Shown here in pieces: positions 26,991-29,969 of a DNA stretch of 64,000 bases (positions within the stretch are counted from its first letter, which is position 1; every line of letters begins with the position of its first letter). The notes beneath the pieces were generated by a model. That model was not told the origin of the DNA, ran no database searches, and saw nothing but the letters and a program-made list of their open reading frames with translations. The DNA is from an uncultured Clostridium sp. (lineage in GTDB: Bacteria; Bacillota; Clostridia; TANB77; CAG-508), in NCBI GenBank assembly GCA_947572725.1, contig CANPDB010000003.1, forward strand, positions 2,296 through 66,295. The letters are read 5' to 3'. The translations under genes were made by a program, and so were the position numbers.

Positions 26991-27240
26991 TTGACAAATG
27001 CAAAAGAATACGTTACTATTTAATTACAAAATAAATGAACTTTGAATGTCGCTAGTATTCAAATCATAACAGTGTGTGTACCACGAATACACATGCTATT
27101 TTTTGTCAAAAATAGAGCAGACCACGAATATGCTCTACGACTAAATACAGCTAATTAGTCTTAACTTTGTTGTCATCTTGCATTTGCTTATGTTGTTGTT
27201 CTAATTGTTGTTGTAATATAATGTTTTTTTAAATGAATAA
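26991..27240 (+). ncRNA. sigmaA-type promoter plus three-hairpin structured RNA element, copy 1 (upstream of zupT)
   Basis: TTGACA-17-TACTAT promoter (26991-27019) followed by hairpins at 27041-27063, 27073-27093 (loop CCACGAA) and 27114-27136 (loop ACCACGAA). Copy 2 at 29666-29822 keeps all three stems through compensatory substitutions. Confidence 0.5.
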
Positions 27241-27294
27241 AATAAAGCTCTTTAAAATAAACTGTATATAAGAATATTTAAAGGAGTTTTTTTA

Positions 27295-27786
27295 GTGGAA
27301 GAAATATTAAAAACAACATTATTAGGTTTATTTTTTGGAACATTTGGTACTACATTAGGAGGAATTATAGGAGTTATTATAAAAAAACACTCAAATAAAT
27401 TTTTGAGTTCAATTTTATCATTTGCATCAGGACTAATGATGGCAGTAATATGTTTTGATTTAATTCCTGAGGCATTAGGAATTAGCAGTATTTTTAATAT
27501 AATAGTTGGAATAGTAGTTGGTATAATTGCAATGATATTTTGTGATATATTAGTTGAAAGAAAATTCAGTAATACAAAAAGATTTGAAGGAGAAAAGAAT
27601 TCATTATTAAAAACAGGCATTATTGTATCAATTGGTTTGGCAATTCATAATTTTCCAGAAGGATTAGCAATTGGATCTGGATTTGAAGCTTCAATGAAAT
27701 TGGGACTAAGTTTAGCTTTAGCAATTTGCTTGCATGATATACCAGAAGGAAGATTCCAAAGTAGACACCAAGTGAAATATGCTTGA
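27295..27786 (+). pseudogene. zupT: ZIP-family zinc transporter ZupT, N-terminal fragment (disrupted by insertion)
   Basis: GTG start with RBS AAAGGAG. ZIP TM helices up to LHDIPEG, then non-homologous tail RFQSRHQVKYA. The reading frame resumes at 34862 (ISMAVPMKNGG...). Confidence 0.75.
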
Positions 27787-28182
27787 TAAACGATTTGAAT
27801 TTAAATTAAATTTTAAATAGAAAATGCATACGTTATTAAAATAAGTAAAGTATGTATTTTTTTTGCTCAAAATAATTAGATAAATGAAGAATTTTTTGTA
27901 TTAAAAGTATAAAATTTTTGATAATTTGTAAAGTAACAAAATTTGATAGGTATCGAAATGAGCAAACCATTGAAAACAAAAGAGTTTATAATATTGATTT
28001 GATAGTTTTGTGAGTGGAGGTAAGTAGACGATAGCGTATGCTATCGAATATCTTACCATAAGGGACAATTTAGTGATAAATTATAAAAAGAATTTTAAGT
28101 GAACAAATGAAAAGGAATAGAAGATAAAAAAGTTGATTTTTTATTGATTTTAATGTTAATATATATACTAGGAGATTTTTAA

Positions 28183-29106
28183 ATGAACAGAATAAAACAG
28201 AATATAAATGAATTTTTAATGCAATTATGTATTTATTGTATAGTGTTTGTTCCAATAGGAGCTGTTATGATATATGTAAAAGCTAATTTTATAAGTGAAA
28301 TAATAATATGCATTATATCTTTTATAATATTTACATATATTAAAATAAAAATTGAAAAAAAAATAAGAATAAAGCCAATTTTTAATGAAAAATATTATAG
28401 AGATATTCCAAATATAAAACCTGCAATATTGAAATTTTATATTTCTAAAGGAAAATATTATAATGATTATTATGATTTTTATGCTACAATTTTAGATTTA
28501 ATAAATAGGAGATATTTATTATTAAATTTTAAAACAAAAATATTAACAATAAATCAAGGAGCAAATTTAAATAATTTAGAAACATTTGAATTAAATATTA
28601 TTGAATTATTATTTTATAAGAGAAATCAAACAGAGATAGACTTTACAAAACTGAAATATGAATTAGAAAATGATGAATTATTTTATGCAAAAATAGAAGC
28701 ATGGAAAATGCTTGTTATAATAGCAGCTAATAATAATATATATTTAGACACTAATAAGAAAATTGATTTATTAAGAAAAATATCAGGATTAATAGCGGGT
28801 GTTATTCCTTTTATATTTTTAATATTACCTTCAATGTTTCAAATTAATGATATTTGGTGTGGCTTTGTTTGTGCTATCGAAATAGGTGGTTGGTGTTTAG
28901 CAAGTATAAACAATAAAACATATTCAAAAGAAATAATAGAAGAAATTGAAAAATCAAAAGCATTAGCGAGATATGTAAAAGATTATTCAATGATCAAGGA
29001 AAAAGGTATAAATGATGTAGTAATTTGGGAAGGATATTTAGTATATTCAGTTATATTAAATACACCAGATAAAATAAAAAAATATTTCGATGATATATTT
29101 AGATAA
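28183..29106 (+). CDS. hypothetical polytopic membrane protein (possibly DUF2207-like)
   Basis: Several TM helices with long cytoplasmic segments; no enzymatic motif. Confidence 0.4.
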   Translation: MNRIKQNINEFLMQLCIYCIVFVPIGAVMIYVKANFISEIIICIISFIIFTYIKIKIEKKIRIKPIFNEKYYRDIPNIKPAILKFYISKGKYYNDYYDFYATILDLINRRYLLLNFKTKILTINQGANLNNLETFELNIIELLFYKRNQTEIDFTKLKYELENDELFYAKIEAWKMLVIIAANNNIYLDTNKKIDLLRKISGLIAGVIPFIFLILPSMFQINDIWCGFVCAIEIGGWCLASINNKTYSKEIIEEIEKSKALARYVKDYSMIKEKGINDVVIWEGYLVYSVILNTPDKIKKYFDDIFR

Positions 29107-29136
29107 TAAAACATCAAATGTGTTTCTTTATTAAAA

Positions 29137-29598
29137 ATGAAAGGAAGTGTTGTTATGAATTTTTTTAGGAGAAATTCTGGAGCATTAATTATAGTTGGAA
29201 TAATATTAATAATTTTTTATTTTACAGTTTTATTTTATAATAATTTTTATGAAGATAAAATGAAAACTACAGTATTAAGAACTGGAGAGATCCAAGTTTT
29301 TTATGGAGATGGTTTAAAAGATTTAAAAGATGTTAATACTACAGGATTGGATGATATTACATATTATAAAGACATAACAATAGAGATTAATGGAAAAGAG
29401 ACAGTTTTTAAAGATTCACAACAAACTGTAAGAAAATTAGCAAATATAAATGAAGAAATAACTATATATAAAGATAAAAATGGAAATATACAGAGATATA
29501 CAAACACGACAAAGTTTATGAATTTTTTCTGCCTATTTACTGGAATTATTCTATTGAGTACGGCATTTATTAGCAAAATATCAATAAAAAGAAAATGA
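29137..29598 (+). CDS. hypothetical membrane-anchored protein
   Basis: N- and C-terminal hydrophobic segments; alternative start at 29155 with RBS AAAGGAAG. Confidence 0.4.
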   Translation: MKGSVVMNFFRRNSGALIIVGIILIIFYFTVLFYNNFYEDKMKTTVLRTGEIQVFYGDGLKDLKDVNTTGLDDITYYKDITIEINGKETVFKDSQQTVRKLANINEEITIYKDKNGNIQRYTNTTKFMNFFCLFTGIILLSTAFISKISIKRK

Positions 29599-29665
29599 TT
29601 ATCCATCCTTATATTCTAATTGCAAATTTGGTACAGAAAATATTGGAAAATTCTAGAAATTTGAT

Positions 29666-29822
29666 TTGACAAATGCAAAAGAATATGTTATTATTTAATT
29701 ACAAAATAAATGTGTTTGATTTACCAATGGTCAAACTTGTAGATGTAGATGTATGTGTATCCGCGAATGCACATACTTATTTTTTTGCACTAAAAATAGA
29801 GTAGACCGCGAAATCTACTCTA
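29666..29822 (+). ncRNA. sigmaA-type promoter plus three-hairpin structured RNA element, copy 2 (inside the integrated element)
   Basis: TTGACA-17-TATTAT promoter (29666-29694). Hairpins at 29714-29736, 29751-29776 (loop CCGCGAA) and 29799-29822 (loop CCGCGAA). Confidence 0.5.
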
Positions 29823-29843
29823 TCGACTTATGTATGTCTACAA

Positions 29844-29969
29844 TTAGTCTTTGTCGGATTGCTCATCTTTATTTAATTGATGTTGCTGTGAAAGTTCTAG
29901 TCTTATGACTTTTTCTCTTTCAGTTAGTAATTTATCAACTAAATTAAGAATCGCATCACCAATGGTCAT
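29844..29969 (-). CDS. small hydrophilic protein (41 aa) convergent with and followed by the structured RNA element
   Basis: MTIGDAILNLVDKLLTEREKVIRLELSQQHQLNKDEQSDKD with RBS AAAGGGG. A degenerate, start-less remnant of the same ORF is recognisable on the minus strand in copy 1 (around 27150-27240). Confidence 0.4.
   Translation of the reverse strand: MTIGDAILNLVDKLLTEREKVIRLELSQQHQLNKDEQSDKD

What the first reader, a model, noticed from the sequence alone, without database searches (positions are those of the whole stretch)
26991..29969. Two paralogous copies of a promoter plus three-hairpin structured RNA module with compensatory stem changes
Copy 1 (26991-27240) and copy 2 (29666-29969) share a near-identical sigmaA promoter TTGACAAATGCAAAAGAATA(C/T)GTTA(C/T)TAT. 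Each is followed by three hairpins whose stems differ between copies yet stay base-paired: TTTGAATG/TATTCAAA versus GTTTGA/TCAAAC; GTGTGTA/TACACAT versus GTATGTG/CACATAC; AGAGCAG/TGCTCT versus AGAGTAGA/TCTACTCT. The loop sequence CC(A/G)CGAA is conserved. That is a covariation pattern expected of a functional structured RNA. In copy 2 the plus-strand RNA is antisense or convergent to a 41-aa hydrophilic ORF with a good RBS (29844-29969, minus strand). Copy 1 retains only a degenerate, start-less C-terminal remnant of that ORF (QQLEQQHKQMQDDNKVKTN versus LSQQHQLNKDEQSDKD) and instead precedes zupT. This could be a cis-antisense sRNA/small-protein regulatory pair, arranged like a type I TA system but with a non-hydrophobic peptide. 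Alternatively copy 1 may serve as a structured 5' leader for zupT. One copy lies inside the integrated element and one outside, next to the integration site. I cannot match it to a riboswitch or sRNA family I know.
Basis: seen in the sequence. Interest (0 to 1): 0.75.

Follow-up and report, generated by a model that had tools for sequence, protein, structure and literature searches.

The report
Antisense-RNA-controlled small-peptide gene pair
The two repeats are copies, one intact and one truncated, of an undescribed convergent gene pair in uncultured gut Clostridia: a roughly 85-nt RNA is built to pair with the start codon region and terminator loop of a 41-residue peptide mRNA, in the manner of a type I toxin-antitoxin module.

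Summary
The sequence features are real: two homologous copies, and only two in the window. They are not one three-hairpin plus-strand RNA. Hairpins 1 and 2 plus a T-run form a roughly 85-nt plus-strand sRNA. Hairpin 3 is the terminator of the minus-strand mRNA for a conserved 41-aa helical peptide.

Across 72 distinct modules from gut metagenomes and MAGs, the sRNA terminator loop and the mRNA terminator loop co-vary so that they stay complementary (21 loop variants). The hairpin-1 loop and 3' arm always repeat the module's own start-codon region, even where the peptide N-terminus is entirely different.

This is the architecture of the par/Fst type I toxin-antitoxin locus: convergent promoters, kissing terminator loops, and a direct repeat over the initiation site. 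It differs in having two separate terminators, no transcript overlap and a non-hydrophobic peptide.

Copy 2 is intact and lies in a 7.1-kb serine-recombinase element inserted in zupT. Copy 1 is an orphan sRNA from a sister subfamily whose peptide gene lost its 5' half; it is not a zupT leader.

The RNA pairing is well supported. Toxicity and an addiction function are inferred. No Rfam, Pfam or literature match was found.

The parts
29666..29694 (+). Copy 2 sRNA promoter: -35 TTGACA (29666-29671), 17-nt spacer, TG-extended -10 TATTAT (29689-29694)
   Evidence: Scores 11/12 consensus with TG. TTGACA-N17-TAYTAT is conserved in nearly all modules.
29698..29786 (+). Copy 2 sRNA (about 85 nt; TSS inferred near 29701). 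Hairpin 1 is 29714-29736, hairpin 2 is 29751-29776, U-run is 29777-29786.
   Evidence: Covariance-model hit of 83.1 bits. Flagged as a terminator. Fold. Hairpin 2 is 100% paired in 30 modules with 2 compensatory pairs, and its U.G pairs are valid only on the plus strand.
29723..29742 (+). sRNA anti-initiation-site segment. ACCAATGGTCA (29723-29733) sits in the hairpin-1 loop and 3' arm; TTGTAG (29737-29742) follows. Both are direct repeats of 29958-29975.
   Evidence: 98.7% of cells paired with the mRNA start region, with 4 of 10 pairs changed on both sides. Second segment. The repeat lies in the loop and 3' arm in the diverse sRNAs for which it could be located.
29760..29767 (+). sRNA terminator loop UCCGCGAA, complementary to the mRNA terminator loop
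   Evidence: 94.8% of cells paired, with 5 of 8 pairs changed on both sides. 69 of 72 modules share at least 6 nt between the two loops, against about 12% of non-cognate pairs.
29791..29821 (-). mRNA terminator: hairpin 3 (29798-29821, loop complement of 29806-29813) followed by the U-run (complement of 29792-29797)
   Evidence: 99.6% paired. U.G in 17 of 30 and G.U in 12 of 30 modules are valid only on the minus strand. Weak terminator-like Rfam match on the minus strand.
29844..29969 (-). 41-aa peptide gene: MTIGDAILNLVDKLLTEREKVIRLELSQQHQLNKDEQSDKD
   Evidence: 43 clusters at 68% identity or more. pN/pS is 0.22 for codons 5-27. AlphaFold2 predicts a single helix over residues 3-40 at pLDDT 89.6. 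No family hit.
29958..29986 (-). mRNA translation initiation region: SD GGAAAGGGG (29977-29986), spacer CUACAA, AUG (29969-29967), codons 2-4. This is the target of the sRNA.
29987..30061 (-). mRNA leader and promoter: hairpin B GCCUUUUCUAAAAGGC (29987-30002) next to the SD; 5' end AACAACCUU (about 30029-30021) able to pair with the SD; -10 TAATAT (30038-30033); weak -35 TTGTTT (30061-30056)
   Evidence: Hairpin B shows covariation in 4 of 6 pairs. Upstream block is conserved. In the MFE fold the 5' CCUU pairs with the SD; z = -5.1.
26991..27019 (+). Copy 1 sRNA promoter: TTGACA, 17 nt, TACTAT, without TG
27023..27106 (+). Copy 1 sRNA (type-B subfamily). Hairpin 1 is 27041-27063 and carries TCGCTAGTATTCAA. 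Hairpin 2 is 27071-27097 with loop CCACGAA (27081-27087), followed by a T-run.
   Evidence: Covariance-model hit of 73.5 bits. Flagged as a terminator. Same loops, and the same hairpin-1 repeat core (TCGCTAGTATTCAA), as the intact modules in L074 and L001.
27114..27229 (-). Copy 1 remnant of the partner mRNA: hairpin 3 (27114-27136, loop matching CCACGAA) and the last 25 codons of a type-B peptide gene (27151-27229, ...KNIILQQQLEQQHKQMQDDNKVKTN*). The N-terminal codons, SD, leader and promoter are missing.
   Evidence: Homology to intact type-B modules ends near 27229.
27751..34870 (.). 7.1-kb integrated element that splits zupT and carries copy 2. It is flanked by ACCAGAAGGA (27741-27750 and 34861-34870). 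The serine recombinase lies at 30606-32178.
   Evidence: The zupT 3' part resumes at 34871. Junctions. The same junction, recombinase and module recur in other contigs.

Best explanation
Each copy is, or was, a two-gene module transcribed from convergent promoters.

The plus strand gives a roughly 85-nt sRNA from a near-consensus promoter. It consists of a short A-rich 5' tail, hairpin 1, and hairpin 2 with a U-run as its terminator. The minus strand gives a roughly 237-nt mRNA from a weaker promoter. It consists of a structured leader, SD, a 41-codon ORF for a soluble helical peptide, a 3' UTR, and hairpin 3 with a U-run as its terminator. As drawn, the two RNAs do not overlap.

The two RNAs are complementary at two places, and selection keeps them so:
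1. The 7-8-nt loop of the sRNA terminator pairs with the loop of the mRNA terminator (kissing contact).
2. The hairpin-1 loop and 3' arm, plus the next six bases, pair with the mRNA from about -9 to +11 around the AUG.

The proposed order of events follows par of pAD1. Loop-loop kissing nucleates the complex. Pairing then closes over the initiation site and blocks translation. The leader may additionally hold the SD until then.

By analogy, the peptide would be a growth-inhibiting product and the sRNA its antitoxin, which would make the module an addiction or stabilisation device. Copy 2 would serve this role for the 7.1-kb zupT-inserted element.

Copy 1 is an orphan. Its sRNA gene is intact, but its partner gene lost the 5' half. 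Its loop has a central A-C mismatch to the copy 2 mRNA loop, and its hairpin 1 is unrelated, so it probably does not control copy 2.

Status of each step:
- Shown: homology, strand assignment, both intermolecular complementarities with covariation, and coding selection.
- Inferred: transcript ends, translational repression, and toxicity or addiction.
For: - Family: the peptide is found in 43 protein clusters and in 29 species-representative MAGs of uncultured gut Clostridia. An sRNA-based scan found more modules with other peptide subfamilies.
- Intermolecular pairs on 30 modules: 97.1% of cells paired, against 21-40% when slid. 9 of 18 pairs and 70 cells changed on both sides. Covariation score is 0.374 against 0.159, with 0 of 500 shuffles as high.
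- On 72 distinct modules: the loops match in 69, with 21 loop versions. The hairpin-1 repeat of the module's own start region is at least 10 nt in 58 of 72, against 16% of non-cognate pairs. It tracks unrelated start regions such as ATGACCATTGG, TTGAATACTAGCGA and ATGACTCAACCTGA.
- Strand assignment: wobble asymmetry and terminator flags.
- Identical peptides (window copy 2 and L001) carry different loops, so the loops are not protein-specified.
- Coding: pN/pS is 0.22.
- Leader hairpin covariation; SD partly sequestered in the MFE fold.
- Predicted duplex is -28 kcal/mol at the initiation region and -11.7 kcal/mol loop-loop. For the copy 1 sRNA on the copy 2 mRNA the values are -12.3 and -7.8.
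- TA-like asymmetry: several modules keep the sRNA and have lost the peptide gene. The only two peptide-found loci without the sRNA promoter (L029, L048) also have damaged peptide genes.
- Mobile context: the module sits between the zupT junction and the serine recombinase in many contigs. Elsewhere it sits next to tRNA genes.
- The architecture matches the par description in PMC7472228.
Against: - No transcript data exist. The TSS, the 3' ends and the non-overlap are inferred from motifs.
- The peptide has no transmembrane segment (maximum 19-residue hydropathy 0.35). It resembles no known toxin, and nothing shows it is harmful.
- There were no hits in phage, plasmid or viral collections.
- A few modules have imperfect start-region pairing (L023, L030, L042, L048).
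- The simple scan did not flag hairpin 3 as a minus-strand terminator.
- The sRNA-based metagenome scan required hairpins 2 and 3, so it cannot reveal peptide genes that lack an sRNA.
- Co-resident modules always differ in loops, but that count is not significant.
Confidence: 0.6

Rival explanations
1. The RNA architecture is the same, but the peptide is not a toxin. It would be a small regulatory or accessory protein, for example one acting on the mobile element or on a host protein through its amphipathic helix. Its synthesis would be tuned by a dedicated trans-acting sRNA, and there would be no addiction function.
For: - The peptide is hydrophilic and helical and lacks the membrane segment typical of type I toxins.
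- It has no hit in defence or TA libraries.
- Some modules lie in ordinary chromosomal neighbourhoods, such as between a metallophosphatase gene and rpmE.
Against: - The module moves as a self-contained unit among unrelated contexts and is often truncated.
- Its specificity determinants diversify, with 21 loop versions even among identical peptides.
- Loss of the sRNA promoter coincides with peptide-gene damage.
- These are habits of selfish TA modules more than of a housekeeping regulator.
Confidence: 0.3
2. The hairpins are merely the intrinsic terminators of two convergent genes. The shared loop and start-region repeats are leftovers of duplication or gene conversion, without any RNA-RNA contact.
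For: Both hairpins 2 and 3 are followed by U-runs on their own strands. No binding experiment exists.
Against: - The stems of hairpins 2 and 3 are unrelated in sequence, yet their 7-8-nt loops change together in 21 versions.
- The hairpin-1 repeat follows the start region through unrelated coding sequences.
- Slid controls drop to 21-40% paired.
- Conversion of 7-nt tracts between unrelated flanks is implausible.
Confidence: 0.05
3. One reading: a single plus-strand RNA with three hairpins and a conserved loop motif acts as a cis-regulatory leader or a protein- or ligand-binding element. In copy 1 it would control zupT.
For: Copy 1 lies about 190 nt upstream of zupT on the same strand. Read-through of its terminator would enter zupT.
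Against: - Hairpin 3 is mispaired on the plus strand in most modules.
- Hairpin 2 is a plus-strand terminator that precedes hairpin 3.
- The loops are not conserved across the family.
- zupT in related genomes has no such element upstream.
- Intact relatives of copy 1 sit in other contexts with a peptide gene, not zupT.
- There is no Rfam match.
Confidence: 0.04

Closest known systems
par of Enterococcus faecalis pAD1 (RNA I/Fst and RNA II) and the par-like loci of the Fst/Ldr family
   Same: - Convergent promoters.
- Terminator stem-loops whose loops start the RNA-RNA contact.
- DNA direct repeats that make the sRNA complementary to the initiation codon region.
- A leader structure close to the SD.
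- Variation in specificity between paralogous loci.
- Location on mobile elements and on chromosomes (PMC7472228).
   Different: - Here there are two separate terminators instead of one shared bidirectional terminator, so loop complementarity must be kept by co-evolution.
- There is one bipartite repeat, not DRa and DRb.
- The peptide has no hydrophobic domain, no PxxxG motif and no conserved Trp.
- There is no sequence homology.
- A YUNR U-turn is present only in some loop versions.
SprA1/SprA1AS (PepA1) of Staphylococcus aureus
   Same: An adjacent, convergently encoded antitoxin RNA acts through a non-overlapping 5' domain on the SD and start codon region of the toxin mRNA (own knowledge; mentioned in PMC7472228).
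   Different: - The SprA1 genes overlap at their 3' ends.
- PepA1 is a membrane peptide of the Fst family.
tisB/istR-1, shoB/ohsC, zorO/orzO and dinQ/agrB of Escherichia coli
   Same: Type I systems in which the antitoxin gene lies next to the toxin gene without overlapping it, and pairs through a short region of about 20 nt (own knowledge).
   Different: - Those pairs are divergent, not convergent.
- They have no terminator-loop kissing.
- Their toxins are hydrophobic.
Antisense-RNA copy-number and incompatibility control of plasmids (ColE1 RNA I/II, R1 CopA/CopT)
   Same: Kissing loops act as the specificity determinant, and a few loop substitutions create new, non-cross-reacting specificities (own knowledge).
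   Different: Those RNAs are fully overlapping antisense transcripts that control replication, not a peptide gene.

Membership tests
par/Fst-type type I TA locus | Toxin mRNA and antitoxin sRNA are transcribed from convergent promoters | tested here: met
   Conserved promoter motifs face each other in all modules. Transcription itself was not observed.
par/Fst-type type I TA locus | A single shared bidirectional terminator | tested here: not met
   There are two distinct hairpins with unrelated stems. Each is valid only on its own strand, and they are separated by a T-run/A-run spacer.
par/Fst-type type I TA locus | Complementary terminator loops that start complex formation | tested here: met
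   Loop-loop complementarity with 5 of 8 pairs changed on both sides; 69 of 72 modules match. Binding was not tested.
par/Fst-type type I TA locus | Direct repeats that make the sRNA complementary to the toxin initiation region | tested here: met
   The bipartite repeat covers -9 to +11 and co-varies.
par/Fst-type type I TA locus | Intramolecular leader structure that sequesters the SD | tested here: inconclusive
   A covarying hairpin abuts the SD. The MFE fold pairs the invariant 5' CCUU with the SD, but invariant bases give no covariation.
Fst/Ldr toxin family | Peptide of about 30 aa with a hydrophobic transmembrane helix (PxxxG, Trp) and a charged tail | tested here: not met
   No window of 19 residues exceeds a hydropathy of 0.35. 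There is no Pro and no Trp. Only the polar tail is similar.
Type I toxin-antitoxin system (general) | The protein product inhibits growth and the RNA neutralises it | not testable with these tools
   Only indirect signs exist: orphan sRNAs are common, and the two sRNA-less loci have damaged peptide genes.
Any Rfam RNA family | Score at or above the gathering threshold | tested here: not met
   Nothing was found in the window or in 7 related loci except SRP RNA and tRNAs. The best sub-threshold hit was sbrA at 21 bits against a threshold of 45.
Any Pfam/NCBIfam/PADLOC/PHROG/PDB protein family | Significant profile match | tested here: not met
   No hits. A profile search of 1.84 billion representatives returned 41 hits: 40 small proteins of 35-89 aa, and one 1344-aa protein (6 stretches, E 8.4e-5) that I take to be a chance match.

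The most novel reading that the evidence does not exclude
The helical, non-membrane peptide is a new class of type I toxin, or another dose-sensitive effector, with an intracellular target. The two short RNA contact sites act as a two-part barcode under diversifying selection. This would give dozens of mutually orthogonal addiction specificities within one uncultured gut lineage, so that elements can coexist and resident orphan sRNAs cannot disarm incoming modules.
Probability: 0.3. Interest if true: 0.75.

Novelty: new variant of a known kind. Interest (0 to 1): 0.62.

Why it matters
- It adds an undescribed RNA and peptide family from a reduced-genome, uncultured lineage of gut Clostridia, where almost nothing is known about RNA regulation.
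- The two transcripts do not overlap, so both contact sites must be kept complementary by selection. The family is therefore a natural compensatory-mutation experiment with 21 loop versions and several unrelated start regions. It documents kissing-loop plus initiation-site pairing without any laboratory work.
- It offers ready-made orthogonal sRNA/target pairs for synthetic biology.
- If the hydrophilic peptide is toxic, it would widen the short list of non-membrane type I toxins.
- It also corrects gene calls. Many database entries for the peptide are extended through the conserved leader, giving spurious N-termini of the form ...LSKGRKGG.

Tried and rejected
- Rfam at gathering and permissive thresholds found no family.
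- blastn against the phage and plasmid collections, and a viral-contig pattern scan, found nothing.
- Pfam, NCBIfam, PADLOC, PHROGs and a PDB sequence search for the peptide found nothing. I did not run a fold search, because a single 41-residue helix would give meaningless matches.
- RNAalifold on the 51-sRNA alignment recovered only hairpin 2. Hairpin 1 sits in different registers in different subfamilies, so I folded each sRNA on its own instead.
- A loop-binding protein such as the peptide itself was rejected, because identical peptides carry different loops.
- Copy 1 as a zupT leader was rejected.
- Copy 1 sRNA as an anti-addiction antitoxin for copy 2 is unlikely. It has a central A-C mismatch in the loop and an unrelated hairpin 1, and its duplex energy is much weaker.
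- Co-resident modules always differing in loops is suggestive but not significant (P about 0.3).
- A universal YUNR U-turn was rejected. It is present in UUCG- and UUCA-type loops and absent in several others.
- Literature searches by topic and by peptide strings found no description.
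Full report
**Observation**

The two copies are real. 26940-27300 and 29615-29990 align at 79% identity. The shared promoter pattern and the A-run/hairpin-3 pattern each occur exactly twice in 64 kb, with essentially none expected by chance. A covariance model built later from 51 family members finds only these two sites (83.1 and 73.5 bits; the next hit is 17.8 bits at E about 1). Rfam has nothing at either copy. The best sub-threshold hit is a terminator-like match to sbrA on the minus strand of hairpin 3.

**Anatomy and strand assignment**

On the plus strand of copy 2, the features run in this order:
- TTGACA, 17 nt, then TG-extended TATTAT (29666-29694)
- hairpin 1 (29714-29736)
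- hairpin 2 (29751-29776)
- a T-run, which the scan flags as an intrinsic terminator in both copies

An A-run comes next, followed by hairpin 3 (29798-29821), and then the 41-aa ORF on the minus strand (29969-29844).

In a set of 30 distinct modules, hairpin 2 has a U.G pair in 18. That pair would be a C-A mismatch on the other strand. Hairpin 3, read on the minus strand, has U.G in 17 and G.U in 12. Those would be mismatches on the plus strand. Hairpin 3 is therefore the terminator of the peptide mRNA and is not a third hairpin of the plus-strand RNA.

The module is two convergent, apparently non-overlapping transcripts: an sRNA of about 85 nt and an mRNA of about 237 nt. The mRNA has a conserved upstream block with a weak -35 and a TAATAT -10. 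It also has a leader with a covarying hairpin next to the SD (4 of 6 pairs changed on both sides). Its whole-transcript fold is far more stable than shuffles (z = -5.1), and in that fold the 5' CCUU pairs with the SD.

**The peptide is a real gene**

- Exact copies occur on 21 contigs read (the index lists the peptide in 37 blocks of the collection), and 43 clusters share at least 68% identity.
- The N-terminal 26 residues are nearly invariant.
- pN/pS is 0.22 for codons 5-27 and 0.55 for the tail.
- AlphaFold2 predicts one long helix at pLDDT 89.6.
- There is no transmembrane segment.
- There is no hit in Pfam, NCBIfam, PADLOC, PHROGs or PDB sequences.
- A profile search of 1.84 billion representatives returned 41 hits. 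Forty are small proteins, many mis-called with leader-derived N-terminal extensions. The other is a 1344-aa protein that I take to be a chance match.

**Relatives**

A peptide-based scan of species-representative genomes gave 29 loci. All are in MAGs of uncultured Clostridia from human, mouse, rabbit and chicken guts, including Clostridium sp. CAG:245.

About half are true modules.

These include sister subfamilies with quite different peptides. Examples are (TTG)NTSDLVLHFVNKYIEEKEKNFFLQQQ..., MTQPELILRLVEMLLAERDKNNQLK... and MNLSDVILHLVDELIAEKEKNFML... They share the motif D/E-x-I-L-x-L-V-D/E-x-L-I/L-x-E-K/R-E/D-K.

**The key result: two intermolecular complementarities maintained by co-evolution**

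1. The hairpin-2 loop and the hairpin-3 loop are identical on the DNA strand, so they are complementary between the two RNAs. They change together. The versions include CCGCGAA, CCACGAA, CTGCGAA, CTGTGAA, TGCAAC, TCCGGAAA, TCCGGAAG, TACGAA, CCGAGAA, CCGTAAC, CGCAAC, CCACAAC, CCGTGAA, CTGCGAG and CTGGAAG.
2. The hairpin-1 loop and 3' arm repeat the module's own start region. In copy 2 this is ACCAATGGTCA at 29723-29733 and again at 29958-29968. The six bases after hairpin 1 (TTGTAG) repeat the spacer between the SD and the AUG.

On a chimeric alignment of 30 modules, these pairs are 97.1% formed, against 21-40% when slid. Nine of 18 pairs and 70 cells changed on both sides. The covariation score is 0.374 against 0.159, with 0 of 500 shuffles as high. 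The spacer segment co-varies as GTAG/CTAC, GTAA/TTAC and ATAG/CTAT.

On 72 distinct modules, the loops share at least 6 nt in 69, against about 12% of non-cognate pairs. The start-region repeat is at least 10 nt in 58, against 16% of non-cognate pairs.

The repeat follows the start region through unrelated coding sequences and start codons, both ATG and TTG. In all 51 distinct sRNAs the 5' part folds into a hairpin. Wherever the start-region repeat could be located, it lies mostly in the loop and 3' arm.

Window copy 2 and L001 encode the identical peptide but carry different loops (CCGCGAA and TGCAAC). The loops are therefore not read by the peptide.

The predicted duplexes for copy 2 are -28.2 kcal/mol at the initiation region and -11.7 kcal/mol loop to loop.

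**Mechanism**

The layout matches the par locus of pAD1 as described in PMC7472228:
- convergent promoters
- terminator loops that start a kissing complex
- direct repeats that let the sRNA cover the initiation site
- a leader structure at the SD

The most likely mechanism is therefore as follows. Loop-loop kissing between the two terminators comes first. Pairing over -9 to +11 then blocks translation. The strong sRNA promoter would keep the antisense RNA in excess. This part I hold at about 0.85.

That the peptide is a toxin and the module an addiction device is an inference, at about 0.5. The indirect support is:
- The module is self-contained and sits in unrelated contexts. In many contigs it lies between the zupT junction and the serine recombinase. 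Elsewhere it lies next to tRNA genes and a conjugation cluster, or between a metallophosphatase gene and rpmE.
- Its specificity determinants diversify.
- Modules with an intact sRNA and a lost or broken peptide gene recur.
- The only two peptide-found loci lacking the sRNA promoter (L029, L048) also have a damaged peptide gene. L029 has a GTG start with a shortened SD. L048 has a premature stop and D5Y.

**The two window copies**

Copy 2 is intact. It lies in a 7,120-bp element (27751-34870) that splits zupT. The zupT 3' part resumes at 34871, and ACCAGAAGGA flanks both ends. The element also carries two membrane-protein genes, a serine recombinase, a Fic-domain gene and two other ORFs.

Copy 1 lies outside the element, 190 nt upstream of zupT. 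Its sRNA gene is complete. It is of the type-B subfamily. It has the same CCACGAA loops as the intact modules in L074 and L001, and the core of its hairpin-1 repeat (TCGCTAGTATTCAA) is identical to theirs. On the other strand only hairpin 3 and the last 25 codons survive. Homology stops near 27229, where native zupT upstream sequence begins. zupT in related genomes has no such element. Copy 1 is thus a decayed module and not a zupT leader. Its sRNA is poorly matched to the copy 2 mRNA (-12.3 and -7.8 kcal/mol).

**Comparison and novelty**

It works like par/Fst. It also resembles SprA1/SprA1AS and the non-overlapping E. coli type I pairs. [quoted passage not shown] The peptide fails the defining hydrophobic-domain test. 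The terminator is not shared. There is no homology.

No Rfam or protein family matches, and full-text searches by topic and by peptide strings found no description. I classify it as a new variant of a known kind.

**Limits**

- There is no expression, binding or toxicity evidence.
- Transcript ends are inferred.
- The metagenome scan was conditioned on hairpins 2 and 3.
- Related sequences inflate shuffle-based statistics, although the slid controls and the many independent loop and repeat classes argue against a phylogenetic artefact.

Noticed in passing
window 27741-34870: A 7.1-kb integrative element splits zupT at the HDIPEG codons. It is flanked by a 10-bp direct repeat, ACCAGAAGGA, with short inverted repeats just inside (AAAGTAGAC / GTCTACTTT). 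The same junction recurs in many metagenome contigs.
   Followed up: partly
window 30606-32178: The serine recombinase of the element is split into two ORFs: a resolvase domain of 208 aa and a zinc-ribbon part of 269 aa, with a 137-nt gap. The same split is called in L001 and L004. It is either a conserved pseudogene, a recoding event or an intervening sequence.
   Followed up: no
window 32247-33185: A Fic-domain protein (HPFIDGNGRTARLL motif) is encoded in the element just after the recombinase. This is a second possible toxin-like cargo gene.
   Followed up: no
window 30404-30508: A 34-aa ORF lies between the peptide-gene promoter and the recombinase gene. It is also called as a gene in L004, and a 33-aa ORF is called in L001. 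Its function is unknown.
   Followed up: no
window 6038-6287, 20629-20680, 22765-22940, 38692-38861: Another dispersed intergenic repeat family has four copies. Its core is CTACTCGCTCCCAGGAGTTTATATTTTAATATTTTTT, and two copies also share an 80-nt block containing a hairpin (AAAAGTTC...GAACTTTT). It is unrelated to the module studied here.
   Followed up: partly
window 8469-8504, 8722-8757, 19486-19516, 51797-51832, 51883-51913: There are repeated GC-rich palindromes of the form AAGTTGCCAAAAAGACCCGTCCCTTTTGGCAACTT. They may be terminator-like repeat elements.
   Followed up: no
window 44387-44601: A tandem array with a 15/18-nt period lies inside a coding region and would encode an Asp/Asn/Lys/Gly-rich repeat. 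Nearby, 43112-43915 and 60128-60919 hold longer domain repeats typical of a surface protein.
   Followed up: no
window 1515-1610: A small-type bacterial SRP RNA (Rfam RF00169, 63.9 bits).
   Followed up: no
L090 (about 1135-1254), L108, L109, L116, L158, L165, L169: Some contigs carry two modules in tandem or close together, always with different loops and hairpin-1 repeats. In L090 a second sRNA promoter directly replaces hairpin 3 of an upstream sRNA, which suggests recombination between modules.
   Followed up: partly
P0009, P0014, P0015, P0069-P0090 (protein database entries): Many database versions of the peptide are over-extended at the N-terminus, for example ...LSKGRKGG-M.... Gene callers read through the conserved mRNA leader, and the shared extension is a translation of the leader hairpin and SD.
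   Followed up: yes
window 29698-29713 and 27023-27040: The single-stranded 5' tail of the sRNA (AUUACAAAAUAAAUG) is highly conserved across subfamilies. I found no complementary partner for it in the mRNA, so its role is unexplained.
   Followed up: partly
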